From a virus, in the IMG/VR virus record IMGVR_UViG_3300030060_008003, positions 1 to 64,000 of that record: DNA of 64,000 nt. One strand, written 5' to 3'. A program made the translations under genes and the position numbers. Positions within the stretch are counted from its first letter, which is position 1, and every line of letters begins with the position of its first letter. The notes under the pieces were generated by a model that was not told the DNA's origin, ran no database searches, and saw nothing but the letters and a program-made list of their open reading frames with translations. Positions 35,601 through 55,008 of the stretch are shown here, piece after piece.

Positions 35601-36306
35601 CCCCTGGTGGAGGTGTAACTTCATCAGGCGGTTGTGTAACACCCGTGTTTTCAACAATAGAAGGACGTGATGGTTCTGATTCCAAAACATCCGTAATAAT
35701 CTCTACTTCCCTTACAGTTACCCCCTCGCTCTGTGTATTATTAAAAAGGCCAGATATTAAATCTTGACTCTCTTGATTTAATCCTTCACTCTCTCGAGCC
35801 GGTGGTGGAGTAACACCAGGTGTCGATGGATCGTAATTAGGGTTAGGTATGTTTAAAGTTTGAGATTTAACATATGGCCTACCATCTACAATTTGCTGAA
35901 GAGATACAGTAACATCCATGCTACCGTCTTTAGCAACTTCATCAGCACCTAAAGTTAATCTTGCAGCATTTATAGTTATCTGCGCAGTACCAGCCGATAC
36001 TGCTGAATCACCATCTTCAAGTTCTGTCTTATTGTTAAAATCTTCAACAAAATATTCTACTTCCCCATCAAACCCTTTACTCAATGAAACGTAATCAACA
36101 TTAATGACCCCAGTGGTGTTATCAAATGAGCCCTCAACGCCACCAGCGCCGAGTTGCGGATAAGATATAACAGTTACAAAAACGTCTTGTATCTGTACAT
36201 CTGGATCTCCTAAATGCACAGAAGCCGGCGCCGGGGTTCCAGACGACAACCCCATTGGATCAGGAGTTGTTTGATATTGAGAAAAATCTGGAGCCGGTGT
36301 TTCCAT
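32677..36306 (-). CDS. large putative virion protein: coiled coil, trypsin-like serine protease, Cys-rich unit and mucin-like Pro/Thr tail
   Basis: ATLITPQHVVISKH, DVTVGLL, GDSSSP; CPEGKERVNGECVDVCPDG; PPPDDGTT, YTTPP, PPE and poly-Thr repeats. Confidence 0.7.
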   Translation of the reverse strand: METPAPDFSQYQTTPDPMGLSSGTPAPASVHLGDPDVQIQDVFVTVISYPQLGAGGVEGSFDNTTGVINVDYVSLSKGFDGEVEYFVEDFNNKTELEDGDSAVSAGTAQITINAARLTLGADEVAKDGSMDVTVSLQQIVDGRPYVKSQTLNIPNPNYDPSTPGVTPPPARESEGLNQESQDLISGLFNNTQSEGVTVREVEIITDVLESEPSRPSIVENTGVTQPPDEVTPPPGGGTTPTVTYPGDSGLSGLTEDLESAPETETVTISKSDIVDTIRDPLAAAAVLAEESVTAAENTIGAGTNASGGRGYSPGTLGLSLRAQNQRRPNEFPQSFVDRVTNLNDMAERARDSANLANGKVAMALMSVNQWLTTANNFNVLSNTAITDVYNNIVSASQAIDAAAVFAEETYKTGQVGSQAAVWQITQRTNASKITALNLAAAFVSILAKIESLKGAVDAAQRAADKASADAAARVVAERLERLNAIKDRAISSLGEDVIPYYRKQEYIDQINSLGTTTVLINQFLFNAAQARQQAIQQVSDDKVKEAEARAEAKRQEEEDRTSQAELELESQRQQGIDRAARIEEIAAKRFEARERRLISQLELLTWTKIVELAEETYAKYVEIRDSNLPADAKLIQMRFLDDDLGIIQKFLDDNPDLVFEDPETIESQLAAREPSQTAKNINKVLLDAMPINFGNGLSKVDFSGVNEAGAETWSPQNQNDRPPPWRKAATLITPQHVVISKHWPVLYGPNDPFGGEVVFVDKNGNRITRRIVLTQNLDREVGGSDKYDVTVGLLNEPVDNVTIYSLPQPKSLTEYSEILKGGHFVRTDQERKALIVKYGGGSNNGVNITFPPHDQVDEEYRESDNYINEPLQKGDSSSPTFIYTNNTPILIETHFTTSGGPFYGTLAIQELINNAITRLAGETMGVYGGDYTPNTVDIDEELLKGAGDGTDTTPDPGGGYTTPPPDDGTTPPPDDGTTPPPDDTTPPVTPPPCPEGKERVNGECVDVCPDGWRRNEEGICYNPYPEPDDESDGSLNGSPIDITIDLPGLIFSDPTDGSGSDFRIYEDPTTEPPYKTTPPYTTPPYTTPPYTTPPYTTPPVYTTPPPPCTTIPPHIVTPNDFGGPPDPRDPVVTLPPEPPEPPEPPEPPEPPTFIYPAPILPLQTPFIMDELTTTTTTTTTTTTTTTVPPVLTVTTTICPEDEDCNNLQF
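32748..33090 (-). repeat. coding tandem repeats: poly-Thr, (PPE)n, (YTTPP)n
   Basis: Degenerate 3/18-bp, 9-bp and 15-bp in-frame units. Confidence 0.85.
33358..33428 (-). repeat. 24-bp coding tandem repeat, about 3 copies (TTPPPDDG)
   Basis: ATCCGGTGGAGGAGTCGTACCATC at 33361, 33385 and partially at 33409. Confidence 0.9.
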
Positions 36307-37232
36307 TATGCAGTAATATTAGTGACAGTTGTAAATGGATTATTAGGTACAGTACTCAGACTCGGAGTTCGAATAGTTTCAGTAAGTACCTCACTTCCTT
36401 CGTATCCTTCAACATGAAAATTTCTTAAAAAGAAATCTTTTGCGCTCAATTGATAAGCTGCGGCAGTTGATGCATAATTTGCTGAAATTGGAGTAGTAAA
36501 GGCAAATCCACAATAAATGTTTTCTATATTAGAAAGAGTACTATATCTTGTACCGAGGCTAATTGCCGTTAGTAAGGTGTAAGTTGTTGTATCACTCTCA
36601 CGTGAATCAATAAATAGCGTTCGTCCAAGATTAACATATCTAAATCTTAAAGTCCTGTATGTGTCTGTAGATATAGTACTAAACGTAGTAGATATAGAAG
36701 AAAGATGATTATTAACAATTACGTTATGTAAAAAGTCTCGCGTTATAATTGATTCTCTTAATACTTTATTTGGTTGTACCCCGGGTCGATCATCTCTACC
36801 TGTTAACGCGTATTTACCAGTAGAATCAAACGCTACTTTAACTAACATACCACTAAGTACAGCCCCTTCGAGTAAAACTGTAGAATCGCCTTCTGTTTTC
36901 AAAGGTTCAGAAGAGGATAAAACACCTGCTTTGGTATACCCTTCCGTCAGCAGTGCATTTGCTGATAATATAAATTCTGGGTCTTGATCACCAATATATT
37001 GCCCGGGTAGACAAGATAAAGGTCTAGGTAAATTAGTTAAAAACGTTGAAAAACCTAATTCGTAATTATGAGATTTAGCTGTTGCACCAAAACTAGTACT
37101 CGGTAGCTTGTATTGAAAAGACCACGTAATATCATAATTTGAATTAAAAGATTTACCAACTTCGACGAAGGTATAATATCTTGCCTCCGCGGGTAATGAT
37201 ATATCTGTTGGAAATCCTGCTAATGCTGCCAT
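36306..37232 (-). CDS. late structural protein, beta-rich (possibly lectin-like)
   Basis: 308 aa, Ser/Thr-rich; late promoter; coupled to the 1209-aa gene. Confidence 0.55.
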   Translation of the reverse strand: MAALAGFPTDISLPAEARYYTFVEVGKSFNSNYDITWSFQYKLPSTSFGATAKSHNYELGFSTFLTNLPRPLSCLPGQYIGDQDPEFILSANALLTEGYTKAGVLSSSEPLKTEGDSTVLLEGAVLSGMLVKVAFDSTGKYALTGRDDRPGVQPNKVLRESIITRDFLHNVIVNNHLSSISTTFSTISTDTYRTLRFRYVNLGRTLFIDSRESDTTTYTLLTAISLGTRYSTLSNIENIYCGFAFTTPISANYASTAAAYQLSAKDFFLRNFHVEGYEGSEVLTETIRTPSLSTVPNNPFTTVTNITA

Positions 37233-37248
37233 ATATATATTTAATTAC

Positions 37249-37461
37249 TCATTCCTTTATAAAAGTACAGGTTAGAGATTTTGTTTTTTTGATTTGTGTT
37301 TTAAACACTAACATGTAACCTAACTTTGATAACTCTAAATGTACCGTTTTAAAGTGTTCGAATGGTATATTGACAAGGATACTTTCAAACTCGTTATCAT
37401 ATATAACGTAGTCGGAAAATTCTTCACAGAGTGCATTAGCTCTGCAAACACTTGTATTCAT
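37249..37461 (-). CDS. small hypothetical protein
   Basis: 70 aa; TAAATA 5 nt upstream. Confidence 0.6.
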   Translation of the reverse strand: MNTSVCRANALCEEFSDYVIYDNEFESILVNIPFEHFKTVHLELSKLGYMLVFKTQIKKTKSLTCTFIKE

Positions 37462-37469
37462 ACAAGTAT

Positions 37470-37637
37470 TTATTCATCATCAAAGACTTGAAGAATTTTA
37501 TCTATCTTTTCAATTAAAATATTCGTATCAGCATGTAGCTGACTTTCACTATATTTAAAGCTAGTGTTATTAGATAAAATTTCTTTTAGAGTTACAAAAT
37601 CTTCAAAATTAAGACCTTCAACTATAACTTCTTCCAT
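37470..37637 (-). CDS. 55-aa hypothetical protein missing from the ORF track
   Basis: MEEVIVEGLNFEDFVTLKEILSNNTSFKYSESQLHADTNILIEKIDKILQVFDDE fills the gap exactly. Confidence 0.6.
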   Translation of the reverse strand: MEEVIVEGLNFEDFVTLKEILSNNTSFKYSESQLHADTNILIEKIDKILQVFDDE

Positions 37638-37669
37638 ATTGTAGTTATATTCTCTACGCTATAAAGCAA

Positions 37670-39331
37670 CTAGTTCCACTCAAACACAACAACACCAGTT
37701 GCAACAGGAGCACTTGCGGGCCCATCAGCATGTGACCCTCCACCCCCGCCATATGCAGGCGAGTGTCCATAAAATCCAGCTCCACCAACATCTTCTTCAT
37801 CTCCACCATCGTCTGTATCGATAAATCCAACCCCACCTAAAATCTTTAATGTACCTGTCGGTAAATATACACTTTCAGCAATTGTTGGAGACGCAGCGTC
37901 TATTAAACCAAACGCGCCACCTGGCGCTGTAACTATTGGATTATTACCATCTGCTTTAGGTTCATATATGTAACTAGTTTGTCCGCTAGTGTTTCCAACC
38001 GGAGCTGCTCCAACAACAACGGGGAATTCTTTTCCAGGAGCCGCTGAAAGATACCCGATAGCTGTAGCGCCAGCATTACCCGATGTCTTATCACCGGGAG
38101 ATCCTGACCCGGTTACATAAAACTTAACATAAGATACACCACCTGGCATTTTAAAGGTATGTTCTATACCTGGTGTGTCAAAAACCTGTATACCTGGCTG
38201 TGGTCTTGTTATTTTTACCGTACCACTAAGCGGATTAAAAGACGTATCTGTTACATTTTGTGTAACACCTGATCCAGATGTTATAGTAGCAGAAAGATTT
38301 TTACCAATTGTATATGCTGGACTAGTTACACCACCAAAAGCTTTGATAATAAAATTCATACCAACAGCAGAAAGTGTTGTCTTTCGAGCTGATAAACCTG
38401 CTCCACGTGCTGGAAATTGACCACCGAGACTATTTGTTGTTGAATCAAAGCCGTGTATAAATGTAGAACTTAAATTTGGAACATTGAAAGTATTATCTGC
38501 AAAATTACGCCCATATTGTCCATTAAGAGCAGTAAGAAGCTCAGAATATGTTACAGCATTAACAGCTTGCCCGTTACAGTTCAACCAACCATGCGGTGCA
38601 CTAGTTAATGGACCGGCATATGTCTGAATAGAACCAACAGGAATTAAAGCTGCTGTGGTTGGTGCAACAGCTGTAAGGACTTCTTTTGGTACTTTCCAAG
38701 TAAGTTGAGATCCACCGCCGCTATCTATTGCATCATAAGCTAGGAAATCTTCTTGTTGCGGTGACCCAGCTGGAAAAGTATAATTAACTGCACCTACGCG
38801 TAATTTAGATGGTAGTGTAAGATAATCAGTTAAACCAGTGCTATTTTGTGTAATTTTATCGATACTAATTGTAGCACTTAATGCTAGTTTTTCAGAACCA
38901 TCAATAGTTAATGAGTTGCCTATTGCATTTAAAGAAAAATTACCTGCAGATAATGTTCCAACTGATATTCTATTATTAGCATCAATAGTTATTGTTTTAT
39001 TATATGCGCTTAAGTAAGTTGCAACAGTTACCCAATCCGCCCCTACGCTTCCTGTACCTTTAGTTAAAACTTTAAAACATCTGTTATCTGTATCATACGC
39101 ATAATCACCACTAGCCACAGGCGCGAGCGATGTTAAGTCCGCTGCCTCACCTGCCCATTTGTTACCAACTATAACACCACCTACTGTTGTACCATCACCA
39201 ATATACAACCTTTTTGTATCAGTGGCATACCCTAGTTCTCCAGTTTCTAATGTTATTTGCTGTCGATCATGATTTGTCCCTCTTCTAACAAGAAGTTTTA
39301 ATAATGTGTTTTCTAAAATTTGTATGGACAT
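37670..39331 (-). CDS. tail fibre protein with collar domain
   Basis: VRRGT...GELGYATDTKRLYIGDG N-domain; IPVGSI...GWLNCNG...YSEL...FNVPNL collar; Gly-rich C-terminus. Confidence 0.8.
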   Translation of the reverse strand: MSIQILENTLLKLLVRRGTNHDRQQITLETGELGYATDTKRLYIGDGTTVGGVIVGNKWAGEAADLTSLAPVASGDYAYDTDNRCFKVLTKGTGSVGADWVTVATYLSAYNKTITIDANNRISVGTLSAGNFSLNAIGNSLTIDGSEKLALSATISIDKITQNSTGLTDYLTLPSKLRVGAVNYTFPAGSPQQEDFLAYDAIDSGGGSQLTWKVPKEVLTAVAPTTAALIPVGSIQTYAGPLTSAPHGWLNCNGQAVNAVTYSELLTALNGQYGRNFADNTFNVPNLSSTFIHGFDSTTNSLGGQFPARGAGLSARKTTLSAVGMNFIIKAFGGVTSPAYTIGKNLSATITSGSGVTQNVTDTSFNPLSGTVKITRPQPGIQVFDTPGIEHTFKMPGGVSYVKFYVTGSGSPGDKTSGNAGATAIGYLSAAPGKEFPVVVGAAPVGNTSGQTSYIYEPKADGNNPIVTAPGGAFGLIDAASPTIAESVYLPTGTLKILGGVGFIDTDDGGDEEDVGGAGFYGHSPAYGGGGGSHADGPASAPVATGVVVFEWN

Positions 39332-39343
39332 ATGTTAAAATAT

Positions 39344-40906
39344 TTAGTAGCTATAAACCGGTATTGCAAATCTATCAAATGTTTCATTACTAGCACTATT
39401 ACGTACATTACCAGATAACGCCATAGTAATAAATCCTGCTGAACTTAAACTAAGCACTTGACCGCCTGAGTTAAGGCCGTTACATACTTGCTGTGCATAT
39501 TTACCTAAAAATCCTTGACTTACTTGATTTGGCGCGCCATTGAAGATATTTAAAACAGGATCTTCAGCATACTTAATAATAAAGTTAACACCAAATGCGC
39601 TAAGAGTATTGTAAGGAGGCTTTTTATCAGGTCCGGAGACAGCACCATCTGTAGCACTCAAGAATAATGTTCTTGTACTCGCAGTAATGGCTCCTTCAGA
39701 GCCATATAGCATAACATCGCCACCGGTTAAACTCGGTACTCTAAAGAGAGACATTCCCGTGCCGCCATATACAGTGCCTATTTTATCAAAAAGCTGTCTA
39801 TACTCTGTATTAGTAGTTGCATCATATGCATGACCATCACATAATAGATAACCTGCAGGAGGGCTGCTAAACGCTTGCGCATGCGGTAAAATAGAACCAA
39901 TAGGTACACCATCACCAGCTCCAGCGCCTGATAAGCCAGTAGCTGTTACAACATCAAATATAGAGCTTTGTACGTCTGTAACTAAACCTTTTTCTACATT
40001 TACATAAGGCAGCTCTTGAAATGCTGAAGTAGATCCATTTAATGATACAACCCCGTTATCATTTATTAAGAGTTCACCGTCTACAGATTGCAATGTTGTT
40101 TCGAGTCTATTAGATGCCGTGTTTACGGTTAATCCACCACCCAATCTACCCTCTGTAGTGGATGTTCCATCACCCGGTCCAGCCCATGTAGATATAGGAA
40201 ATGATAATGATCCGACACTCTTAAGTTCTAATTTATTATTAGCATCAAACTTAAATTGATCCTCATTAACACTAAGAGCTAGCTCTTCACCGTTACCTCC
40301 CTTTAAACCGCTTGCTGATGGAAATAAAGCTTTTATTTCTCGTTTTGTTATAGAGTTTTGCTTTGGGGTTAATCGACCTGTAGTGCCGGTTGCACTAGAT
40401 AATTCTATATAGTCTGTATTAAATGCTACACTTGCTTCTCCAGCCGTAGTGTTTGATGATAATAAACCAGCTCCAAAAAATGTTGTACCTATATTTTGTG
40501 AATCTAAACCTTGTTTTTTAACAGAAAGCTTATTATTACTATCAAACTCGATAGATGTATCATTAGGTACACTACCAATATATGCCCACCCTGATAAAGC
40601 ATTAGTATATGCTTTACCAGTTGAACTAGCCCCAGTTAAAATATACAAGCGACTATCTGCATACCCTATATCACCGACTTGAAGATGAGGAGATTCGCCA
40701 GCAGCTGGTCCTAAACTAGCAACTGTTGCAAAAGGACCTACTGCTTTATTACCAGCAACAGTCCCGCCGTAAGTTGCTCCATCACCAACAAATAATCTCT
40801 TAGAATCAAGAGTGTAACCAACCTCCCCTTGATCTAATACAATGTCCTGGCGCTGACTATCAGTACCTCTTCTAACTTTTAATTTTACTATAGTAATATT
40901 TGCCAT
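39344..40906 (-). CDS. tail fibre protein with collar domain (paralog of 37670-39331)
   Basis: VRRGT...GEVGYTLDSKRLFVGDG; VPIGSI...GYLLCDG...FRVPSL; VNFIIKY. Confidence 0.8.
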   Translation of the reverse strand: MANITIVKLKVRRGTDSQRQDIVLDQGEVGYTLDSKRLFVGDGATYGGTVAGNKAVGPFATVASLGPAAGESPHLQVGDIGYADSRLYILTGASSTGKAYTNALSGWAYIGSVPNDTSIEFDSNNKLSVKKQGLDSQNIGTTFFGAGLLSSNTTAGEASVAFNTDYIELSSATGTTGRLTPKQNSITKREIKALFPSASGLKGGNGEELALSVNEDQFKFDANNKLELKSVGSLSFPISTWAGPGDGTSTTEGRLGGGLTVNTASNRLETTLQSVDGELLINDNGVVSLNGSTSAFQELPYVNVEKGLVTDVQSSIFDVVTATGLSGAGAGDGVPIGSILPHAQAFSSPPAGYLLCDGHAYDATTNTEYRQLFDKIGTVYGGTGMSLFRVPSLTGGDVMLYGSEGAITASTRTLFLSATDGAVSGPDKKPPYNTLSAFGVNFIIKYAEDPVLNIFNGAPNQVSQGFLGKYAQQVCNGLNSGGQVLSLSSAGFITMALSGNVRNSASNETFDRFAIPVYSY

Positions 40907-40912
40907 GATTTT

Positions 40913-41992
40913 TTATGCTATTCTTCTCCATACATATGCACCGTATGATGGAGGAATGTTATTATGTTTTTTACCTTCACCTACAGACGTAGATTGTCTA
41001 ATGCTCTCAGATCCTTCATTAAAATTAACTTGCTGATTATCTCTTGTTACAACACTTGCACGGTTAGCATTATTAGCTAGCTCTCCAGCTTGTGCTGACC
41101 CTACATCTACAGCTCCTTTCTCAATACACCAGGCATATGCATTAAAGTCCCACTGCGATCCATTACCTAAAGGCGATTTACTCGCTACAAATCGCGTTTC
41201 ACCATTCCATAGTCCGATTACTTCTTTATATTGAAACTGTGTATTATTTAGATATCTACTTCTTGTATCCGGGTCATAGTTTGCAGCAGAACCTAATTGA
41301 AAGTTAAGATCAAGAGATCTTCTTACAATATCTTGTGGATCATTATTATTTGCTGTTCTGTTTCCAAACTGATTATTCCAATTCCACCCACTCGCTGCTC
41401 CTAACGCGTTTCTTGACCGTTGCTGCTCTTGCCATGCTTGTGTTGAATTCGTTACACCTACCCCTGTTGCAACAAAGGGCTGGCCATTAGCAACACTTGT
41501 ACCGGTAGATACAAATACGTCATTAGAACCAACATTAGTTGTATGTGTATGAGCTGGCATGTTACCAACATTAAGCTCTGTCATATATTCACCTGCTCTG
41601 TTACCAGACTCAGGAGGTAAGCCATCTTCACAAAATTTTCTATAATCGGTGTTTTTATCTGTATGACCACCAACACCCACTAAAAACCTTCCTTCTGCAG
41701 CTATCTCCCAAGTAGTTCCAGCTATTCTTGTTTGAGGGTTTATATTATCAAGAGTTAATTGGAGACAACCAACAGGGAAAAACGCATCTAACCATTCTGT
41801 TGGTTCAGATAAAGGTCCTTTAGGGTATATATAATTATTAATTATAACTCTATCACCGCTTAGTGCCAATCCAGTAGAGTTGCCGGCACCATCAAAAACT
41901 TTATTTAAAGTATCCCCTAACTCCGCACCACTTAAATGAAGCAAAGAAGTGTAAAAATCAGATATAAATTGATCTGTTAAACTTTCTGGCAT
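40913..41992 (-). CDS. baseplate/short fibre protein (gp10 C-terminal-like)
   Basis: FPVG...NP...GTTW...GRFLVGVG...MPAHTH...HNNIPPSYGAYVWRRIA. Confidence 0.7.
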   Translation of the reverse strand: MPESLTDQFISDFYTSLLHLSGAELGDTLNKVFDGAGNSTGLALSGDRVIINNYIYPKGPLSEPTEWLDAFFPVGCLQLTLDNINPQTRIAGTTWEIAAEGRFLVGVGGHTDKNTDYRKFCEDGLPPESGNRAGEYMTELNVGNMPAHTHTTNVGSNDVFVSTGTSVANGQPFVATGVGVTNSTQAWQEQQRSRNALGAASGWNWNNQFGNRTANNNDPQDIVRRSLDLNFQLGSAANYDPDTRSRYLNNTQFQYKEVIGLWNGETRFVASKSPLGNGSQWDFNAYAWCIEKGAVDVGSAQAGELANNANRASVVTRDNQQVNFNEGSESIRQSTSVGEGKKHNNIPPSYGAYVWRRIA

Positions 41993-44814: not shown

Positions 44815-44828
44815 TATGTATATTTATT

Positions 44829-46799: not shown

Positions 46800-49174
46800 T
46801 TTTTGTAGTCTATAAATTTAATATCGTTAATGTTCGTCGTTTTTGGAATAGAGTTTTTAATATTTGTCAAAACAATATTTTTAACTTCATCACGAATATT
46901 ACTATCTGTTATATTTAAATTTTTAATATTAATATCCACCTCATTACTCTTATGTTTGAGGTTTGTGTTTATTGAGTTTACAAGTTGTATATTATCTGTT
47001 AAATTTCTCTGACCGCATGGTAGAGATATAGTTATGTCTTGTATATTATTAAGATTGGAACTAAACAAGAAAGCTATTCGTTCATTCTCATTAAGAGGTT
47101 CGAGAGAAAGATATAAATTATCAATAGCTATTCTATCCTCTGGATCACTAGCAGCATTACGTAATATTTCAATACTTTGCTGTACATTATCTTCATCTGT
47201 ATAATATATAAAGATGTCGCCAAAAAGAAGTCGCTTAGTGTACATTTGAAAAGCGTTAATTTCAAATGTATACAACTCAATTGAATTTAGATATAATTTA
47301 AACTCACCTAATACAGCATCAAAGGATAAGAAAACATTATTTTGTTCAAATAAATCAATACTAAATTCATACTCATACGTTGTTTGGGCTATTCTAGCTG
47401 ATAAACTTAAACCTTCAGTACTATTATCAAATAACTTATAGCTAAACTTACAAGTTTTTCCATTTTTCTTAAAACAAATACCACCGTCAATCGCATTATA
47501 CTCTGACTCTATATAAAAATCATTTGTATCATTTTGTATTGTAAATCCTAATCCAAAGCCACCATTTTCATTTATAGTAGAAAAATAATTATTAATCTTT
47601 CTATCCACAACCGAAGTTTCGCAGAAATTTGTCGGAGATTTTCTAGTAAAATTTTGTTTTGCAATTCTTACATATTTGTATCTTTTTGACGGTTCAAAAA
47701 CTAAATCACTCTTTTTATCAAAATAATATTTTTCAGTTACTGATGTTTTGAGACTTGAATTAGTCATAATTAAATTTTCAACAGCTTGATCATAAGTTAT
47801 ATTAAATGAACCAACACCACCCAGGGCCTCTTCTTTTGAAACGAGATCTGGGTAAAAATACCTATCAACCCACGTTCCGCGTTTACCTATACCACCGGAT
47901 AACCATGTGCAAAGGTAGGTGACATTTTCACCTTTAACAGAATTATCATCTAAACTATATACTCTATCTGATAAATCTGGTGCAGTAAACGAAAAAGAAC
48001 CGCAATCTGCAAACTTAGTATCATTAATGTTTATTTTATCAAAAGGCTGCAGGGACGATGGAGTTGTAAAATGTGTTGTACCTGATCTGATAATTATATC
48101 ATAGTTATTATAAACATAGTTTAAGGCTAATGTTTCATTTTCCTCACTATCTATATCTGCAAAAATACTAGTGTAGTTTCTTAAATTTTGCGCAAATGTG
48201 GTTGTCTCAGAAGTTGATAAAAGGTTATTTGATGATGTAAACGAGTCTTGTGTATTTACTATATTTTTTAGCGTTAAAAAATTAAAAATTTGTTTATCAT
48301 TATTACTCGAACTGTAGAGTAAGTAGTTAGAAGGTAAATTAAAATCACTTGTTGTATTTTTAATCTTTCCAGAATTATCGTATGTTATGTATGATGTATT
48401 ATACGGCGACGGTATAGTTAAATTTAGCTCTTGATCGAGTCTTATACTAAAAGCAGTAACAGCAAACTCATTATATTGATTTATGGGATTGAGTCTCGTA
48501 GCAACAACCTTATCCCCGTTACTAGTTAATGCATACACAGTTTTTGTCCCAGATTTAATTTTTGTAGAATATAAATTAATGTAACTTATTGATGTATACT
48601 TACATAAATTATAATTTAAATTAAACCCAGATAGTGGTAATTGACTTTCTGAAACAAATAACACTTCACGTGTATCTGTAAACTCACTATCGTTGTCATT
48701 TTCTACAACAAGAAAGTATCGAATATTATTTACCCTAGTTGCAACTCTACAATTAAAATCATCTATTAATTCAATTTCAAAAACACTACCCTCACTAGGA
48801 TTAATCGTTGCCGTTCCGTAGTTTTCTGCTGCGTAAATATTATTTTCTATTTTAAACGTACTTAAAGAAGCTTGCTTAAAGGAACAAAATGCATTAGCAC
48901 TGAATCCAAAATTTAATGTTGAAGTGTATCTTTTTGGTTTTACTTTTGGCGCATTATATGTTGTAACGCTATCTAATAAAACGTTATTAGTAAGGTAAAA
49001 GTTAGTGTAGTTTAAATTTTTAAAGCTTTGTGAGCTAGAGAGGGCCTGTATAAAATTTATCTTAAAGCCTCCATTAAATGTCCGTGGGAATTGATCTAAT
49101 TCAATATTCATCGGACAAAAGCTAGCCTCTGCTGAGCTAAGTGCACTTAGACTAGATTTTACTAAAGATCCCAT
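46796..49174 (-). CDS. putative baseplate/virion structural protein
   Basis: About 792 aa; ATG 49174 is 6 nt after TAAATA. Confidence 0.5.
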   Translation of the reverse strand: MGSLVKSSLSALSSAEASFCPMNIELDQFPRTFNGGFKINFIQALSSSQSFKNLNYTNFYLTNNVLLDSVTTYNAPKVKPKRYTSTLNFGFSANAFCSFKQASLSTFKIENNIYAAENYGTATINPSEGSVFEIELIDDFNCRVATRVNNIRYFLVVENDNDSEFTDTREVLFVSESQLPLSGFNLNYNLCKYTSISYINLYSTKIKSGTKTVYALTSNGDKVVATRLNPINQYNEFAVTAFSIRLDQELNLTIPSPYNTSYITYDNSGKIKNTTSDFNLPSNYLLYSSSNNDKQIFNFLTLKNIVNTQDSFTSSNNLLSTSETTTFAQNLRNYTSIFADIDSEENETLALNYVYNNYDIIIRSGTTHFTTPSSLQPFDKININDTKFADCGSFSFTAPDLSDRVYSLDDNSVKGENVTYLCTWLSGGIGKRGTWVDRYFYPDLVSKEEALGGVGSFNITYDQAVENLIMTNSSLKTSVTEKYYFDKKSDLVFEPSKRYKYVRIAKQNFTRKSPTNFCETSVVDRKINNYFSTINENGGFGLGFTIQNDTNDFYIESEYNAIDGGICFKKNGKTCKFSYKLFDNSTEGLSLSARIAQTTYEYEFSIDLFEQNNVFLSFDAVLGEFKLYLNSIELYTFEINAFQMYTKRLLFGDIFIYYTDEDNVQQSIEILRNAASDPEDRIAIDNLYLSLEPLNENERIAFLFSSNLNNIQDITISLPCGQRNLTDNIQLVNSINTNLKHKSNEVDINIKNLNITDSNIRDEVKNIVLTNIKNSIPKTTNINDIKFIDYKK

Positions 49175-49183
49175 TAACAATAT

Positions 49184-49720
49184 TTATGCTGTGTCTTCTT
49201 TATAAGATTCGTTATCCAATTGAACGATATAATTATCTTTTTTAGTAAGAAATGTAAATCTAGAGCTATTATAGCTTTTGTTTAAGAGATCCAGCCCTAC
49301 TAAGTCAATATCTTCAACAGTTTGATAATAACCGCCCGTTCGTATATTTATAGGTGCGCTTAATTGCGTTGTTTCACCTGTAACATACCCCACATTAATT
49401 TTTAATACTACAGACTTGTTAAGCGCGTAATTAGACGGCTCGTATATATGATTATATAGATCTGATAGATATTTTGGTGCAATACCTCTATTTACTTCAG
49501 GATATATTGAATCCTTTAAATAGTCGCGAAAAATAGTAACATCAGGCTCTAGTACAGGTGTACCGTCGCCCCAATCAATTGCTAGATAGTTTGGAAATGT
49601 ACCGGTAAATATATCTACCAAATTTATATTAAAGTTAGTAACATCAAAAAGATCGATAGTATCGTAAAGTATAGAGCCACCAACTTCTGTTGTAGATATA
49701 GAGAAAGTAAATGTATTCAT
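49184..49720 (-). CDS. PKD-like structural protein
   Basis: IDWGDGT...HIY. Confidence 0.55.
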   Translation of the reverse strand: MNTFTFSISTTEVGGSILYDTIDLFDVTNFNINLVDIFTGTFPNYLAIDWGDGTPVLEPDVTIFRDYLKDSIYPEVNRGIAPKYLSDLYNHIYEPSNYALNKSVVLKINVGYVTGETTQLSAPINIRTGGYYQTVEDIDLVGLDLLNKSYNSSRFTFLTKKDNYIVQLDNESYKEDTA

Positions 49721-52710
49721 AGTATTAAAGCTGCTCCGGATAAGGGTGAGGGTGTAACGTTAGTTGTTGTTAAGGTAGGTACAATAGATGATAGTACAAA
49801 ATTGATATTATTTAAATTGCGTATATTTTTTGCTGATTGTGTAAAGTTAAAAGTAAATCTACTATTATTACAAACATATGCCTCTGTATTTAAAAACTTA
49901 ACGTCATCAACATACTCAAAGAGATAATTTAATAAGACCGGTCCTTTATTTTGATCCTTTAAAACTACAGCAAGATTAAATTGATTATTATCACTGCTAT
50001 ACGTCAGTTGAGGGCGGCTACACTCAATGTATACTGAATCATCAGCCGTTAATGCAAAGTACGCTGCTGATGAAAGGACAGGGTTACCGGTTGTTGGATA
50101 TATTTGTTCACTCTTATCGTTTGCGTAATTATATTTGTAGATCTCTGGGTAAAAATTATCACCTTTATAACCTACTTGTTGCCTCGCCATCCGACAGTAG
50201 AAAACATCATCCTGTACCTTTAGCCTATTACTAGCCTTATCAAAGAAATTTGTATTTATTGTTAATGAATTTGTAAAAGTATTTGGCGTTTTAAATGTTT
50301 CATTATCGTAATTAGTTCTCTCAATAACTACGTAACTACTAGTTTCGATAAATAATGTACTATAGAAGATATCGAAATTAACAACAGCCGTGGATAATTC
50401 ATTACAAACAGCTTTGTTATACTTTGTAGAGATATAAGGTAACCACTCTGTAAGCTCCTTTACTGCTGGTTTATTTGGCGCTTGATTTACATTTTTAATG
50501 TATATCTTACCTAAGTGCTCCCTTTTATCAAAAAATCTTGATGTCGCAGACGTAACGTCAGCTATAGACGTTTTCGCGAAAACGTCTGTTTCATAATCAA
50601 ATTTTTCTCTATTTTGCGAATAGTTAAATATAATTTTATCTGTAAATAAACCACCGTCGTAATTTTTAACATCATTCCCAGAGTTGCCAGATCCGCCTGA
50701 TAGTCGAACATTATAACTAAAATTACCTACAAGGCTTTTAGTAAATGCATCAGTTGGATCGCATAATGCTGTAAAGATAGTTTTACCAGGGAAGGAGGTA
50801 GGGTAAGGAGGATTTGTATTGAACAAACCAATACCTGCTTCTGTTAATTCAGAAAAATAAAATTGATCTGTACTAGCAGCGTAGGAGCTTAAATCAGAGA
50901 TATTTGAAACGCCTATATCTGTTGCACTTGTTGGGTCTACGAGAGCTTCTGTATCTGAAAAAGCAAAATATGCGCCTTCTTTTACATCAGCATCAATAGT
51001 AAATCCTGCAGGTCTTTTATAGTCGACTTCTAAGTAATTAGATGGCTCTTTTAACCCTTGATAGGGATTAAAATATCTGTAAAATATATTGTAAGCAGAA
51101 GTTGGAAAACTAGTCCAACTACCCGGTGTATCGGGTATTAAGCCAGGTGTAGATCGGCCAGTAAACCCATTTGTAAAGGTAGAAAGACCAGATCTTATAG
51201 TCTCAGCAAATGTAGCAGAATCTGATATTTTATATGAAAATTTATAACCTTCACCGTATAGGTCATCGAAAAATTGATAACCGTTCATTAACAAGCTCTT
51301 AACTTGCTTACGCGTTTCAACTGTTACATTATTTCGATAGTAATTTGAATCTTTTACCAACCCAAATATATTACCGAATAGATCTTTCTTACTATCAAAA
51401 ATATAGCCTTCATCAAACAGATAAGATAGATCAGTATTTAAATTTCTATCCTGACCCATTTCAGAATTATAACCTATAAAAGCAGTACTATCTCTATCTG
51501 TGTTAGGTTGATTAACTGCAATACCCTTACTGGCATTATTAATGGCACGTGACGTATCGATAATAAATGTAAGAACATTTTCTGTATTTGTAAATAAATT
51601 AGGATCTGGAAAAATATATAATTGATTTGGTGGATATTTTTTTCTCGTGAAAAACTGTAATCGTTTACCTTCAATAACTACAATTGCAGAATTTTGTGGT
51701 CTAAAAAATCCTAGATCTCGCTCGCTAACTATATCATTAGAAAAAATTGATGCTGTAGATGGAAAATCTTGATTTAAGAAATTAGCATATGGCTTTTGTG
51801 CTTTAAACAACATTTTTATATTGTTGTTTTCGTCAAGTTCAGGGTTACCCTCCCCATCTGTTGCAATATAATAGAAGTCAGCTCCCATGAACTTTTCTGT
51901 AAGCTTCCTTTTATTGCTAAATAAAGAATCTTCTTTTACATTAAAATTTAAAGTTTGTTGAGCTTCTTTAAGCTCAATTAGATCACTAGCAACATTAGCA
52001 AAGACCTGTTGTATAAGCGACTCATCATTTAATAAAAATATATTATCTCGTGGTAACTGCGAAGGATCATACCCTTGAAAAGTTTCACCGTAAGATGATG
52101 CATCAGGAGTTTTATTAAAGTACTGTGCGAAGTTATCAAAGTACTCTGTCATCGATATTGATAAATGTTCTTTAATTTTATCTATATCATAATCCTTAGC
52201 AGATGTACTACGGTTTTCTAGAAATTCTAAAATAAGATCTATAGCAGCTTGCTCTGCACCTAATGTACTACCTTTTACTTTTGCTTTTGTAGTTGCATAA
52301 TGTAGTTTTTGTCTTTTACTTTTGTAGTACGATATAATACTTCGTATCTTCTTACTGTAAAAAGACATTGCTACTTCTAAATCATGAGGATCAGAAAAAT
52401 CTAATTGTGTGAGAAATCTTTGCTCTGCGTTAGTAGAAAAATTTAAAGTAATATCTTTTAAAAAGTCACGATAACGTTCAATTATTATACCTTTATTATC
52501 ACTATCTTGACCTTCAATTATAACGTTCCACCTACTAATGTATGTATTATAAAAACTGGTTAATGTATCCGGATCGTATTGCTCAGTTACAGTTTCTATA
52601 AACTGAACAAAAGAAAATGGAGTAAATCTATCTAATGCATCATCACGATTAACATTAGGATTAGTTATAGATAAATCTACTTCAGGGTAGCCTGTAACAA
52701 TAGTATCCAT
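49717..52710 (-). CDS. large putative baseplate protein
   Basis: 997 aa; late promoter; baseplate context. Confidence 0.5.
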   Translation of the reverse strand: MDTIVTGYPEVDLSITNPNVNRDDALDRFTPFSFVQFIETVTEQYDPDTLTSFYNTYISRWNVIIEGQDSDNKGIIIERYRDFLKDITLNFSTNAEQRFLTQLDFSDPHDLEVAMSFYSKKIRSIISYYKSKRQKLHYATTKAKVKGSTLGAEQAAIDLILEFLENRSTSAKDYDIDKIKEHLSISMTEYFDNFAQYFNKTPDASSYGETFQGYDPSQLPRDNIFLLNDESLIQQVFANVASDLIELKEAQQTLNFNVKEDSLFSNKRKLTEKFMGADFYYIATDGEGNPELDENNNIKMLFKAQKPYANFLNQDFPSTASIFSNDIVSERDLGFFRPQNSAIVVIEGKRLQFFTRKKYPPNQLYIFPDPNLFTNTENVLTFIIDTSRAINNASKGIAVNQPNTDRDSTAFIGYNSEMGQDRNLNTDLSYLFDEGYIFDSKKDLFGNIFGLVKDSNYYRNNVTVETRKQVKSLLMNGYQFFDDLYGEGYKFSYKISDSATFAETIRSGLSTFTNGFTGRSTPGLIPDTPGSWTSFPTSAYNIFYRYFNPYQGLKEPSNYLEVDYKRPAGFTIDADVKEGAYFAFSDTEALVDPTSATDIGVSNISDLSSYAASTDQFYFSELTEAGIGLFNTNPPYPTSFPGKTIFTALCDPTDAFTKSLVGNFSYNVRLSGGSGNSGNDVKNYDGGLFTDKIIFNYSQNREKFDYETDVFAKTSIADVTSATSRFFDKREHLGKIYIKNVNQAPNKPAVKELTEWLPYISTKYNKAVCNELSTAVVNFDIFYSTLFIETSSYVVIERTNYDNETFKTPNTFTNSLTINTNFFDKASNRLKVQDDVFYCRMARQQVGYKGDNFYPEIYKYNYANDKSEQIYPTTGNPVLSSAAYFALTADDSVYIECSRPQLTYSSDNNQFNLAVVLKDQNKGPVLLNYLFEYVDDVKFLNTEAYVCNNSRFTFNFTQSAKNIRNLNNINFVLSSIVPTLTTTNVTPSPLSGAALIL

Positions 52711-52725
52711 TAAACATATTTATCT

Positions 52726-55008
52726 CTAGAACAGAGATAGACTACTAAATAAGGAGTTTCGAATCATAACATCAAATACATTGTTATCACCCTCTAGTGC
52801 ACTAAGTGGTGTATTGTAATCGAGTGTTGTTAAGCCATTTTTATAATCAATCAACCCTCCTTCTATAGTATTATCAAACCCAGCAGATAGACTGTAAAAT
52901 TTATAAAATTTATCTACTTCTGTTGTATCATACGACGCTGGTAATACTAAAGGCCACCCCCAATACGAGCCACTACTCGTTATAGCAGATCCTGTAGGTA
53001 CGGTCGTACTAAGATCACTCAACATATACGTATTAGTATTACGTGAACGTGAATATGCCGCACCAAACTCACCAGACCCACCACTAAGCGCACATAACGG
53101 TTGATACGTATTTAACCTTGTATACGTTTCACTAAATTTTTCATAAGCGACTATATCAGTCCCGGCAGAAACTTCATACGTTAATGTATCTAACAACCCA
53201 TTTAAATTTTTACCATATGTGACTTTTGTTGTATGCCCTTGAGGGTCATAATTTTCATCAAATTTATTTTGCGTACCTCTAAATTTATTATAATTAACAC
53301 TCAAAACGCTCATCAACCTATCTACCATTTCTGGTTGTTGTGCTAAAGCTCTATCAAAAACCAAACCATCATCATCTGTTAAACTAGCTAAATTAATGAG
53401 AGAGTTTATATCGCAATAATCTATGTCATTAGTATTTGATGTAAAATTTTGAATCTTAGACCATAGCTTTTTACCCAAAACAGTATAATCACTACTTACA
53501 CTACCAAAGATAGTTCCTATAAAATCAGTAAATAATATATCTTTATCTAATAAAATTTCTTGGAATCTCAAATCTTTTATTGTTTGTTCAAAATCAAAAT
53601 TTTCATTTTGTTTGTACGCTTCATAATAATTTTTAGGGTAACAAGTAAATGGAGCAAAACCAGTTACAGTATTTTTTAATGTTGGGCTTGTGGCAGTGTC
53701 TTCATATAGGCATTTTGCGCTTAAAGTTAAGACTGATGGTTTGCCAGAAAGCGTCGCTAGAGTTTTGTCATTAAATGTTAATAATCCCCTATACCAAAAT
53801 CTTGTATCAAAAGCAGATAAAGGCGCAGCACTTAAACTCTGTATATCGTAATGAGTTGTAGACACAACAACACCACTGACACCAGGTATAACTTCTGGCG
53901 ATGTCCCGGATAATAATTCAAATGTAGGTGTTGTGTTACTTGACAAAGACTTCATTGTAAAGTAGCCTGTGTTCTTTGGTGATAAAATAAATGGGATACC
54001 TAATCCTTTAAATTGAATCGGTGAAACTTCAAAAGTTTCAACACTATCACCTTCACCGGGTATACCATTTGACGTAATTGCTATACTACTAATAGTTTGC
54101 GAAGAAACTGTTCCGACTAAAGAGGAGAGAGTAATAGTAAAGTTATTTGAATAATCGTTATTTTTAAATCCTGATGTAGTATCTGAAAAAATATTATCTC
54201 TATCTTTAAAGAGAGATATGTTAACAGGCCTATAGGGTTGTTTTTGTCTGTCAGTTTTAAAATAAAATATATCTTTACCAGAACTACCAGCGTGAAAGCT
54301 TGAAATATGTGAACTAGTAGTGTTAACTATAGAGAAGGCTGTCGGACCTTTACCTGATGTGTGATTGTTTCCGCTTAAACGTACATATATGTTTGTAGAT
54401 GATAAAGACATTTTCTTTATCTCTTCATATTCAAATCCCGATAACGTGTCAATGTAGTTTTTCTTATAAAATGAGTGAAATGCTCTAAGATTATTAAATT
54501 TATTTGGCTTTATATTAAAAAAGTTAGGTACATCGCATCCTGATACAGAAAAGTAGATATCTTGAAAATCTTGATAAAAGGGTGTTTGAGAATTAATTGT
54601 TACCGGGTTTGAAAATTCACCTGCTGATAATTCTAATATATTTGATTTAGTCGGTCCCGCTGTTACAGAAAAGGTATTAGTAATGTAATCGTGTATTGTT
54701 ATATTAGTACTGTATGACGCTAGTATACTATTATTATCACAGTCGCGTAAAACCATTCGAACGTTGTATACACCTGGATATTGATATGCATGGGTACTTG
54801 TTAATGTGTTACCGTAGGTACCATCACCAAAGTCAAAGGTTGCTTTAAGAGTGTTATATTGTGTAGTTACAGCTTCACCACCTAAAGAGCTAGGTATACG
54901 CGCTTTAAATGTAAGAGGGGTAAAGGGTAAATTGTATGAAGATAATTTAGCTTCACGCTTAAAATCTTCTACATCAAAGGTTGCATAATTAACTTGTATA
55001 TTACTCAT
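52726..55008 (-). CDS. PKD-domain baseplate wedge-associated protein
   Basis: FDFGDGT...HAYQYPGVYNVRM; directly after gp6 (gp7 position). Confidence 0.55.
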   Translation of the reverse strand: MSNIQVNYATFDVEDFKREAKLSSYNLPFTPLTFKARIPSSLGGEAVTTQYNTLKATFDFGDGTYGNTLTSTHAYQYPGVYNVRMVLRDCDNNSILASYSTNITIHDYITNTFSVTAGPTKSNILELSAGEFSNPVTINSQTPFYQDFQDIYFSVSGCDVPNFFNIKPNKFNNLRAFHSFYKKNYIDTLSGFEYEEIKKMSLSSTNIYVRLSGNNHTSGKGPTAFSIVNTTSSHISSFHAGSSGKDIFYFKTDRQKQPYRPVNISLFKDRDNIFSDTTSGFKNNDYSNNFTITLSSLVGTVSSQTISSIAITSNGIPGEGDSVETFEVSPIQFKGLGIPFILSPKNTGYFTMKSLSSNTTPTFELLSGTSPEVIPGVSGVVVSTTHYDIQSLSAAPLSAFDTRFWYRGLLTFNDKTLATLSGKPSVLTLSAKCLYEDTATSPTLKNTVTGFAPFTCYPKNYYEAYKQNENFDFEQTIKDLRFQEILLDKDILFTDFIGTIFGSVSSDYTVLGKKLWSKIQNFTSNTNDIDYCDINSLINLASLTDDDGLVFDRALAQQPEMVDRLMSVLSVNYNKFRGTQNKFDENYDPQGHTTKVTYGKNLNGLLDTLTYEVSAGTDIVAYEKFSETYTRLNTYQPLCALSGGSGEFGAAYSRSRNTNTYMLSDLSTTVPTGSAITSSGSYWGWPLVLPASYDTTEVDKFYKFYSLSAGFDNTIEGGLIDYKNGLTTLDYNTPLSALEGDNNVFDVMIRNSLFSSLSLF

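What the first reader, a model, noticed from the sequence alone, without database searches (positions are those of the whole stretch)
36306..55008. LS[A/G/S] tripeptide strongly enriched in tail/baseplate proteins: possible glycosylation sequon
Hand counts of LS[AGS]: about 15 in the 760-aa PKD protein (6 LSA, 5 LSG, 4 LSS), 9 in the 553-aa fibre (7 LSA), 8 in the 520-aa fibre, 5 in the 308-aa protein and 6 in the ~792-aa protein. By contrast there are 0 in gp6 (614 aa, despite about 9 LS dipeptides), 1 in gp43 (858 aa) and 1 in gp46 (604 aa). The motif recurs in unrelated folds and non-repeat contexts. Inference: a Ser-acceptor recognition motif for a phage-encoded modifier, analogous to the Bacteroidetes D-(S/T)-(A/I/L/V/M/T) O-glycosylation motif.
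Basis: partly seen in the sequence, partly recalled or inferred. Interest (0 to 1): 0.8.

Follow-up and report, generated by a model that had tools for sequence, protein, structure and literature searches.

The report
Leu-Ser-small tag on phage tail proteins
The outward-facing neck, sheath, baseplate and fibre proteins of an abundant, uncultured group of marine T4-like phages carry the tripeptide Leu-Ser-(Ala/Gly/Ser) about five times more often than chance, which looks like a tag that some enzyme reads (most plausibly to attach sugars), although no modification has been shown.

Summary
The tail block 36306-55008 holds 56 LS[AGS] against 10.0 expected, and 11.9±3.1 even when shuffled within 10-residue windows. 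In an unbiased scan of all 8000 tripeptides, LSA, LSG and LSS rank 2, 5 and 7.

- **Motif:** only Leu, only Ser and only Ala/Gly/Ser are enriched. There is no flanking context, codon usage is ordinary, and repeats or paralogy explain almost no sites.
- **Spread:** the excess holds across the whole uncultured marine clade. It is absent from T4, a cyanophage, Pelagibacter phage HTVC008M and unrelated PKD-repeat giants.
- **Conservation:** Leu and Ser are conserved islands in variable surroundings. Across distant homologues sites turn over while density stays about 5x.
- **Location:** sites sit on neck, outer sheath, peripheral baseplate and fibre proteins, in every secondary-structure class. Replication enzymes are at expectation.

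The sequon reading is plausible but unproven. No enzyme is linked to the motif: the tail-adjacent GT2 is dispensable for it, and the clade-wide Glyco_tranf_2_5 gene gives only one phylogenetic contrast. Burial of the sites could not be computed.

Earlier notes of this scan report analogous tripeptide tags (DGY, SGS and others) on other phages' DNA.

The parts
52726..55008 (-). 760-aa baseplate-peripheral protein just downstream of gp6. It has an N-terminal PKD domain, about five tandem Ig-like sandwiches (residues 1-457), a helical core (458-600) and a C-terminal beta domain. It carries 15 LS[AGS] sites, none of them in the helical core.
   Evidence: 15 observed against 1.66 expected. PKD domain. 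AlphaFold model at pLDDT 80.8, with fold matches to S-layer, integrin and Hoc-type Ig-like strings; orthologues keep 7-19 sites.
49717..52710 (-). 997-aa tail/baseplate protein with no known family and 5 sites.
   Evidence: 5 observed against 1.17 expected (shuffle P = 0.0085); orthologues mostly keep 4-9 sites, but only 1 in the G003 lineage.
49184..49720 (-). 178-aa protein of the tail block with 1 site. It is not individually significant.
46796..49180 (-). 794-aa tail/baseplate protein with no known family and 6 sites. Two sites lie in the first 16 residues, so they depend on the choice of start codon.
   Evidence: 6 observed against 1.3 expected; orthologues keep 3-7 sites.
44829..46799 (-). 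656-aa tail protein with 4 sites.
   Evidence: 4 observed against 0.93 expected.
42025..44814 (-). 929-aa protein with gp10_C-like and gp38-like regions and only 1 site. It is the one large protein in the block that is not enriched.
   Evidence: 1 observed against 0.83 expected. Pfam matches.
40913..41992 (-). 359-aa protein with a gp10 C-terminal-domain match and 2 sites.
39344..40906 (-). 520-aa fibre with Mtd_N and tail-collar domains and 8 sites.
   Evidence: 8 observed against 1.59 expected.
37670..39331 (-). 553-aa fibre with Mtd_N and tail-collar domains, a paralogue of the 520-aa fibre. It carries 9 sites, and all 9 of its LS dipeptides are followed by A, G or S.
   Evidence: 9 observed against 1.03 expected.
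36306..37232 (-). 308-aa protein at the distal end of the fibre genes with 5 sites.
   Evidence: 5 observed against 0.82 expected; orthologues in G001 carry 6 sites.
55001..56845 (-). gp6-like inner baseplate wedge protein, an internal contrast. It has 9 LS dipeptides and 0 LS[AGS].
   Evidence: 0-2 sites in all relatives.
22309..22968 (+). Glyco_tranf_2_5 glycosyltransferase whose start overlaps the stop of an Ntn glutamine amidotransferase gene (21650-22312). It is the only glycosyltransferase found in every clade genome examined, which makes it a candidate reader of the motif by inference only.
   Evidence: Pfam match; present in 5 of 5 genomes; 254 viral contigs, and the 80 listed are all at least 61% identical; absent from cultured phages, including the three controls.
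31838..32665 (-). GT2 glycosyltransferase just downstream of the Thr/Pro-rich 1209-aa protein. It is an accessory gene and is not required for the enrichment.
   Evidence: Pfam match; present in G002 and G004, absent from G001 and G003, both of which keep the enrichment.

Best explanation
L-S-[A/G/S] is a short linear recognition tag. It has been selected on the solvent-facing parts of the tail apparatus of this marine T4-like clade: neck proteins, outer sheath domains, peripheral baseplate proteins and fibres.

The most likely mechanism has three steps.
1. A cytoplasmic enzyme reads Leu at -1 and a small residue at +1, then modifies the central serine hydroxyl before or during assembly.
2. 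The enzyme is most plausibly a phage-encoded glycosyltransferase. The clade-specific Glyco_tranf_2_5 is the best candidate, and lineage-specific GT2 enzymes may extend the glycan.
3. The released virion therefore carries a coat of O-linked groups on its tail exterior, for shielding, solubility or adhesion.

Shown here: the statistical excess, the residue specificity, the conservation pattern, the clade restriction and the restriction to exterior parts. Inferred: that the serine is modified at all, that the modification is a glycan, and which enzyme does it.
For: **Size and robustness of the excess**
- 56 observed against 10.0 expected in the tail block. Local shuffles give 11.9±3.1.
- LSA, LSG and LSS rank 2, 5 and 7 of 8000 tripeptides.
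- LSA ranks 1 or 2 in three further near-complete genomes.

**Sequon-like anatomy**
- Specificity is strict for L, S and A/G/S.
- There is no flanking preference and no shared flanks between sites.
- Codon usage at motif sites is ordinary.

**Selection on the motif itself**
- In orthologues below 65% identity, motif Leu is conserved at 0.89 and Ser at 0.82. Other Leu and Ser stand at 0.63 and 0.53.
- Flanks are conserved at only 0.32-0.63, against a protein mean of 0.55. The third residue wobbles within A/G/S.
- Across 113 representatives, each under 50% identical to the others, there are 920 sites against 174 expected.
- In 69 full-length members, 475 instances are spread over 128 alignment columns. 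Only 4 columns are shared by at least 30% of members.

**Exterior location**
- All 8 sheath sites lie in the insertion region 120-421. Across 120 sheath orthologues the insertion region has 548 sites against 128 expected, and the core has 2.
- gp13-, gp14- and gp15-like neck proteins and a 4204-aa fibre are also enriched.
- Portal, terminase, tube, gp6 and protease have 0-1 sites.
- The replication module is at 0.73-1.33x in five genomes.

**Not a property of the folds**
- T4: 10 against 11.4 expected in the structural region, and 5 against 4.2 in the fibres.
- Cyanophage S-MbCM100: 14 against 15.0.
- HTVC008M: 4 against 6.9.
- PKD-repeat giants: about 1.0x.
- Sites occupy strand, coil and helix.

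**Glycosyltransferases are present**
- Glyco_tranf_2_5 is core to the clade and absent from the controls.
- Every genome also carries GT2-family genes.
Against: - No chemical evidence of any modification exists.
- No enzyme is tied to the motif. The tail-adjacent GT2 is absent from G001 and from G003 (93% complete), which keep the enrichment.
- Glyco_tranf_2_5 sits with a QueC-family protein and an amidotransferase among replication genes, so it may serve nucleic-acid modification instead. No TGT/DpdA was found, however.
- The co-occurrence of Glyco_tranf_2_5 with the motif is a single phylogenetic contrast.
- Cytoplasmic enzymes show no avoidance of the motif, which a promiscuous cytoplasmic modifier might be expected to impose.
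- Where Leu is replaced in orthologues, the substitutes are mostly I, V or Y. This suggests a partly buried hydrophobic position.
- 13 of 15 sites lie within about two residues of a secondary-structure boundary, against 61% of all positions (P = 0.03). Some structural bias therefore exists.
- The major capsid protein, also exposed, has only 2 sites.
- Some sheath variants of 794-800 aa have none above expectation.
Confidence: 0.42

Rival explanations
1. The serine is modified, but not with a sugar. A host or phage enzyme reads the same L-S-small tag and adds another group, such as phosphate, an acyl group, ADP-ribose or a phospho-headgroup.
For: All the motif statistics argue only for a read serine, not for a particular chemistry. 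The preference for Ser over Thr is strict (1.08x for T), whereas many O-glycosyltransferases accept both. No glycosyltransferase could be linked to the motif.
Against: No kinase, acyltransferase or ADP-ribosyltransferase turned up among the roughly 55 proteins scanned. The scan was incomplete. By contrast, glycosyltransferases are present in every clade genome.
Confidence: 0.15
2. No enzyme reads the motif. L-S-small is a structural or folding preference of the lineage-specific beta-sandwich surface modules of this clade. Leu would close a strand, Ser would cap it and a small residue would start the turn, and purifying selection on folding would keep the pattern.
For: 13 of 15 sites in the model lie near a strand/loop or helix/loop boundary, against 61% of all positions (P = 0.03). 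Leu is replaced mostly by I, V or Y in orthologues. The 760-aa protein is largely tandem Ig-like domains. Cytoplasmic proteins do not avoid the motif.
Against: - Sites occur in strands, coil and helices in background proportions.
- There is no i±2 periodicity in hydrophobicity or conservation.
- I, V and T are not enriched in G000, although a strand-end rule should accept them.
- Ig-like and PKD folds elsewhere show no excess: PKD giants about 1.0x, T4 Hoc 0, T4 fibres 5 against 4.2.
- Positions turn over while density stays constant.
- Unrelated architectures are enriched: collar fibres, beta-roll, sheath inserts and neck proteins.
Confidence: 0.2
3. The tag is a non-covalent docking motif. 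It would be bound by an assembly chaperone, by a decoration protein that coats the tail, or by an environmental or host-surface ligand.
For: The motif is restricted to tail and neck parts that assemble by a pathway separate from the head. The capsid protein has only 2 sites, and portal and tube have none. The conserved-island pattern is typical of short linear interaction motifs.
Against: Three residues with no flanking context carry very little binding energy or specificity for a non-covalent partner. The 5-19 copies per protein lie in varied structural contexts, which is unlike known chaperone or docking sites. No candidate partner was identified.
Confidence: 0.1
4. The enrichment is an artefact of composition, of repeats or paralogy, or of choosing the motif after the fact.
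For: Mild local clustering of L, S, A and G exists. Permuted orders reach 1.3-1.9x genome-wide. Two site pairs come from paralogy or repeats.
Against: - The unbiased 8000-tripeptide scan ranks LSA second, at P = 2e-11.
- Shuffles within 10-residue windows give 11.9 against 56 observed.
- The result replicates in four further genomes and in 113 distant homologues.
- Flank similarity equals that of random windows.
- Four kinds of control sequence are negative.
Confidence: 0.02

Closest known systems
Mycobacteriophage virion glycosylation by phage-encoded glycosyltransferases (Freeman et al. 2023, Cell Host Microbe). I know it here only through its citation in PMC12619734; the paper itself was not held.
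   Same: Phage-encoded glycosyltransferases are proposed to decorate the phage's own virion proteins in the cytoplasm, giving a surface coat.
   Different: In the mycobacteriophages, glycans sit on C-terminal regions of the capsid and tail-tube subunits, as summarised in PMC12619734. Here the candidate sites are a dispersed tripeptide on neck, outer sheath, baseplate and fibre proteins. The tube has none and the capsid protein only two. The mycobacteriophage modification is shown chemically; this one is not.
[quoted passage not shown]
   Same: It is a three-residue O-sequon with the acceptor in the middle and Ala allowed at +1. It recurs in many unrelated proteins without wider context.
   Different: Here position -1 is Leu, not Asp (D-S-[AGS] is 0.94x). 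Thr is not accepted. Position +1 takes only small residues, and I, L, V and M are not enriched. The Bacteroidetes system acts on exported proteins outside the cytoplasm, whereas phage virion proteins fold in the cytoplasm.
Cytoplasmic multi-site glycosylation of bacterial adhesins: HMW1C-type N-glycosylation at N-X-S/T, and autotransporter heptosyltransferases Aah/TibC acting on Ser of beta-helix repeats (from my own knowledge)
   Same: A cytoplasmic glycosyltransferase decorates large, beta-rich, surface-exposed proteins at many sites, before export or assembly.
   Different: The acceptor rules and enzyme families differ. No Glyco_transf_9 (Aah/TibC-type) gene above cut-off was found in five clade genomes. 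GT41 was not searched.
Analogous lineage-specific tripeptide tags noted earlier by this scan on other phages (DGY, SGS, [AP]SG, [ST][GAS]S). These are unpublished AI notes.
   Same: An ordered tripeptide with a hydroxyl residue is enriched several-fold on outward-facing tail proteins only, across a whole clade, in phages that encode glycosyltransferases.
   Different: The motif here is different and requires a hydrophobic Leu. It belongs to a different phage group (T4-like, about 150-200 kb, marine). Some of those notes report motif loss together with loss of a sugar-gene cassette, and no such loss event was found here. Those notes are leads, not evidence.

Membership tests
Bacteroidetes-type O-glycosylation sequon D-(S/T)-(A/I/L/V/M/T) | Asp immediately before the acceptor residue | tested here: not met
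   D-S-[AGS] is 24 observed against 25.4 expected in G000, and 0.58x in 113 family members. Leu is the only enriched residue at -1.
Bacteroidetes-type O-glycosylation sequon D-(S/T)-(A/I/L/V/M/T) | Both Ser and Thr serve as acceptor | tested here: not met
   L-T-[AGS] is 1.08x in G000 and 1.73x in the family, against 5.3x for Ser.
Bacteroidetes-type O-glycosylation sequon D-(S/T)-(A/I/L/V/M/T) | Ala or an aliphatic residue, Met or Thr at +1 | tested here: inconclusive
   Ala is the strongest +1 residue (3.9x). However, Gly and Ser are also enriched, while I, L, V and M are not.
Bacteroidetes-type O-glycosylation sequon D-(S/T)-(A/I/L/V/M/T) | Substrates are exported proteins glycosylated outside the cytoplasm | not testable with these tools
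   The host is unknown. Phage virion proteins are made and assembled in the cytoplasm (established knowledge).
Phage virion glycosylation by phage-encoded glycosyltransferases (mycobacteriophage type) | The phage encodes glycosyltransferases | tested here: met
   GT2 at 31838-32665 and Glyco_tranf_2_5 at 22309-22968. GT2-family genes occur in all five clade genomes.
Phage virion glycosylation by phage-encoded glycosyltransferases (mycobacteriophage type) | Glycans on C-terminal regions of the capsid and tail-tube subunits | tested here: not met
   Candidate sites are dispersed. The tube homologue has 0 sites and the major capsid homologue has 2 against about 0.6 expected.
Phage virion glycosylation by phage-encoded glycosyltransferases (mycobacteriophage type) | Chemically demonstrated glycan on virion proteins | not testable with these tools
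   This needs mass spectrometry or glycan staining. No cultured representative of the clade exists in the phage collection.
Phage virion glycosylation by phage-encoded glycosyltransferases (mycobacteriophage type) | The modification depends on a specific phage glycosyltransferase, so the two should co-vary | tested here: inconclusive
   The tail-adjacent GT2 is absent from G001 and G003, which keep the motif. Glyco_tranf_2_5 is present in 5 of 5 clade genomes and absent from 3 of 3 control phages. That is one evolutionary contrast.
Autotransporter-type Ser heptosylation (Aah/TibC, Glyco_transf_9-like) | A Glyco_transf_9-family heptosyltransferase is encoded | tested here: not met
   No match above the cut-off in five genomes.

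The most novel reading that the evidence does not exclude
An abundant, uncultured clade of marine T4-like phages runs a sequon-directed serine-modification system, most likely O-glycosylation, that coats the whole exterior of the tail. L-S-[A/G/S] would be the first defined O-sequon of a bacterial virus. Together with the different tripeptide tags that this scan noted on other phage lineages, it would point to a widespread, undescribed habit of tailed phages: each lineage marks its outer virion proteins with its own short tag, read by its own enzymes.
Probability: 0.35. Interest if true: 0.85.

Novelty: new variant of a known kind. Interest (0 to 1): 0.68.

Why it matters
If the tag is a modification site, these very common ocean phages carry a chemically decorated tail that genome annotation does not reveal. 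Such a coat could affect adsorption, host range, resistance to proteases and particles, and decay rates in the sea.

The result would also give a simple, sequence-readable marker: ordered tripeptide excess on exterior virion proteins. That marker could be used to find virion-modification systems in uncultured phages and to predict which protein surfaces face outward.

The hypothesis can be tested directly. A motif-rich fragment can be co-expressed with a handful of candidate phage enzymes and weighed.

If no enzyme reads the motif, a five-fold, clade-wide tripeptide excess that is conserved yet mobile still needs an explanation.

Tried and rejected
- **DNA-level motif: rejected.** Leu and Ser codons at motif sites match those elsewhere, and both serine codon families are used.
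- **Composition or local composition: rejected**.
- **Repeats, paralogy or shuffled modules: rejected** for all but two site pairs.
- **Generic property of T4-like tail proteins or of PKD/Ig folds: rejected** by T4, S-MbCM100, HTVC008M and the PKD giants.
- **Lipobox-like reading (L-[AS]-[GA]-C): rejected.** Cys at +3 relative to Leu did not pass the P<0.01 enrichment screen.
- **Helix N-cap reading: rejected.** Thr and Asp are not enriched at position 2, and the proteins are beta-rich.
- **First AlphaFold run:** with 29 close orthologues it failed (pLDDT 38.9). The run with 85 diverse sequences succeeded.
- **Search for lineages that lost the motif:** the least enriched family members could not be traced to long contigs.
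  - P0158 was found in neither viral nor metagenome contigs.
  - P0271 was found only on a 4.9-kb contig.
  - P0273 led to G006, which still shows 2.6x enrichment in its tail block.
- **Solved structures:** sequence searches for both glycosyltransferases found nothing.
- **Literature:** searches found no description of a phage sequon.

Full report
**What the window is.** The window is the first 64 kb of a 91.5-kb viral contig, estimated 43% complete. It belongs to an uncultured marine T4-like phage. Its DNA polymerase is only about 32% identical to those of cyanophages. Its sheath core is about 38% identical to those of cyanophages and Pelagibacter phage HTVC008M. The 760-aa protein has no tblastn match in any cultured phage. 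The clade is large: 262 IMG/VR contigs encode a gp6 relative, and the 80 listed are 62-98% identical. The finding covers the minus-strand tail block downstream of gp6. That block holds unassigned baseplate proteins, gp10_C-like proteins and two fibres with Mtd_N and collar domains.

Every hand count is exact. The block 36306-55008 has 56 LS[AGS] against 10.0 expected from within-protein shuffles. Shuffling only within 10-residue windows still gives 11.9±3.1, with a maximum of 22 in 1000 shuffles. The five other orderings of the same residues occur 13-28 times.

The motif was chosen after the fact, so I ran an unbiased scan of all 8000 tripeptides over the whole contig. LSA is 36 observed against 9.2 expected, at P = 2e-11. 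LSA, LSG and LSS rank 2, 5 and 7, and the only others in the top seven are low-complexity triplets.

Specificity is sharp:
- Position 1 takes only Leu. I, V, M and F are 0.9-1.2x.
- Position 2 takes only Ser. Thr is 1.08x.
- Position 3 takes Ala (3.9x), Gly (2.7x) or Ser (2.5x).

No residue preference appears from -8 to +10, and hydrophobicity shows no alternation. Codons at motif Leu and Ser match those of other Leu and Ser in the same proteins in four genomes, with P between 0.03 and 0.9. Both serine codon families are used. The selection therefore acts on the protein.

**It is not repeats or paralogy.** The flanks of 91 sites share 1.32 of 20 identities on average, against 1.29 for random windows from the same proteins. 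Only two pairs are homologous: one between the two paralogous fibres and one inside the beta-roll repeats of the 798-aa protein.

**It extends beyond the stated coordinates.** Three further proteins on the same contig are enriched:
- the sheath, with 8 sites against 1.57 expected;
- a gp14-like neck protein, with 3 against 0.4;
- a 798-aa beta-roll protein, with 8 against 1.05.

All eight sheath sites lie at residues 120-421, inside the large insertion that replaces the outer domains. The conserved core has none. Across 120 sheath orthologues the insert holds 548 sites against 128 expected and the core holds 2. These sequences are related, so the figures are descriptive only.

In three near-complete relatives (171, 155 and 197 kb) LSA again ranks 1 or 2 of 8000, and the same orthologous proteins are enriched. 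So are gp13- and gp15-like neck proteins and a 4204-aa fibre-like giant with 34 sites against 8.8 expected.

Proteins that are not enriched:
- Portal, terminase, tube, gp6 and the prohead protease have 0-1 sites.
- The major capsid protein has 2 against about 0.6 expected.
- The replication module sits at 0.73-1.33x in five genomes.

**Controls.**
- T4 structural region: 10 against 11.4 expected. T4 long fibres: 5 against 4.2.
- Cyanophage S-MbCM100, including a 6064-aa structural protein: 14 against 15.0.
- HTVC008M outer tail and neck: 4 against 6.9.
- Unrelated PKD-repeat giants that match only the PKD domain of the 760-aa protein: about 1.0x.

The excess is therefore specific to this lineage. 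It is not a property of T4-type tails, fibres or Ig-like folds.

**Evolutionary pattern.**
- Orthologues of the 760-aa protein keep 12-19 sites down to about 50% protein identity, and 7-9 in the most distant sub-clade.
- In orthologues below 65% identity, motif Leu is conserved at 0.89 and Ser at 0.82. Other Leu and Ser in the protein stand at 0.63 and 0.53.
- The flanking positions are conserved at only 0.32-0.63, against a protein mean of 0.55. This is a conserved island in variable surroundings.
- The third residue swaps freely among A, G and S at one and the same column.
- A profile search of 1.84 billion representatives found 113 family members, each under 50% identical to the others. Together they carry 920 sites against 174 expected, or 5.3x; LSA alone is 8.2x.
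- In an alignment of 69 full-length members (median 33% identity to the window's protein), 475 instances spread over 128 columns. Only four columns are shared by at least 30% of members.
- Alignment error inflates this scatter. Even so, density is plainly maintained while positions move.
- A more distant relative, G006 (gp6 35% identical), still has about 2.6x in its tail block.

**Structural context.** The first AlphaFold run, with 29 close orthologues, failed at pLDDT 38.9. A run with 85 diverse sequences gave pLDDT 80.8 and pTM 0.69. The 760-aa protein consists of:
- about five tandem Ig-like sandwiches (residues 1-457), whose fold matches S-layer proteins, integrin legs and Hoc;
- a helical, highly conserved core (458-600);
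- a C-terminal beta domain.

Twelve sites lie in the sandwiches, three in the C-terminal domain and none in the helical core. The motif serines are in strand (7), coil (5) and helix (3), close to the distribution of all serines. Thirteen of 15 sites lie within about two residues of a secondary-structure boundary, against 61% of all positions (P = 0.03).

There is thus no single structural element behind the motif, only a mild bias toward the ends of elements. Solvent exposure could not be computed because no coordinates are returned.

**Candidate enzymes.** The contig encodes the following:
- a GT2 (31838-32665) next to a Thr/Pro-rich 1209-aa protein;
- a TylF-like O-methyltransferase (18091-18795);
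- a QueC-family protein, an Ntn amidotransferase and a Glyco_tranf_2_5 glycosyltransferase (22309-22968).

The GT2 and its Thr/Pro-rich neighbour form a variable cassette. It is present in G002 and G004 and absent from G001 and from the 93%-complete G003, both of which keep the enrichment. The Thr/Pro-rich protein is its more natural substrate.

Glyco_tranf_2_5 is single-copy in all five clade genomes. It occurs on 254 viral contigs, and the 80 listed are all 61-97% identical. It is absent from every cultured phage by tblastn and from T4, S-MbCM100 and HTVC008M by profile search. This fits the motif's distribution, but it is a single contrast. Its neighbours also suggest a possible nucleic-acid role, although no TGT/DpdA gene exists in any of the five genomes.

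Every clade genome carries further GT2-family genes. G003 also has an MptE/Maf-like gene.

**Interpretation.** The following features together are what a sequon looks like:
- a bare, ordered tripeptide centred on a hydroxyl residue;
- strict residue rules and no flanking context;
- conservation as an island in variable sequence;
- positional turnover at constant density;
- restriction to exterior tail parts;
- restriction to one clade that has its own glycosyltransferases.

I put serine modification of some kind at a little over one half, and O-glycosylation by a phage enzyme at about 0.4. The main rival is a lineage-specific structural preference at the ends of strands. It is weakened by the variety of contexts, by the exclusion of Ile, Val and Thr, by the negative fold controls and by the turnover. 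It is not excluded. Nothing here shows that any serine is modified.

**Known systems and novelty.** Full-text searches found no description of a phage sequon. The closest published case is mycobacteriophage virion glycosylation, which differs in targets and in site logic. The Bacteroidetes motif is only a formal analogue. Earlier AI notes of this scan describe other tripeptide tags (DGY, SGS and more) on outer virion proteins of unrelated phages. Another window of this same genome carried the same LS[A/G] note. These notes are leads, not support.

**Tool limits.** This blocked the search for lineages that have lost the motif.

Noticed in passing
window 31838-36306; G001 55322-59317 (L100); G002 46949-52999 (L109); G003 98615-108897 (L092-L093): The distal end of the tail block is a variable cassette. 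In three genomes it holds Thr/Pro-rich giants that end in a shared I/L-C-x(4-5)-C-x-(N/T)-L-x-(F/Y) tail. GT2 genes sit beside them only in G000, G002 and G004. G003 instead carries four Pro/Gly-rich large proteins, three with similar N-terminal regions, two of which also share the same C-terminus.
   Followed up: partly
window 18785-19543, 21650-22312, 22309-22968: A QueC-family protein (above the TIGR00364 cut-off), an Ntn glutamine amidotransferase and a Glyco_tranf_2_5 glycosyltransferase are core to all five clade genomes. No TGT/DpdA gene exists in any of them, including the 93%-complete G003. The trio is therefore not a standard 7-deazaguanine DNA-modification set.
   Followed up: partly
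G006 37224-39949 (L118): In the distant relative G006 the gp43 DNA polymerase is encoded as two adjacent ORFs of 533 and 360 aa. Both match the single 858-aa gene of the window.
   Followed up: no
contig 69294-72152 (L084:6294-9152) and sheath orthologues P0001-P0120: The sheath is 952 aa, with an insertion of about 600 aa between its conserved N- and C-terminal parts. Relatives swap this insertion for shorter, unrelated ones (770-830 aa forms that cover only 68% of the query). The 794-800-aa forms carry no LS[AGS] excess.
   Followed up: partly
window 18091-18795: A TylF-family (macrocin-type sugar) O-methyltransferase is present in this contig only. It is absent from G001, G002 and G003.
   Followed up: no
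G003 157081-157566 (L095): An MptE/Maf-like gene (PF01973, 61 bits) occurs only in G003. This family includes flagellin-glycosylation accessory factors.
   Followed up: no
window 37233-37669: Relatives carry a conserved 70-72-aa ORF just upstream of the orthologue of the 308-aa protein (G001 54226-54438, G002 45852-46064, G003 96575-96793, G006 18624-18836). In this window the same position is a 437-nt gap with no ORF of 70 aa or more called. The ORF may be a small fibre-assembly factor.
   Followed up: no
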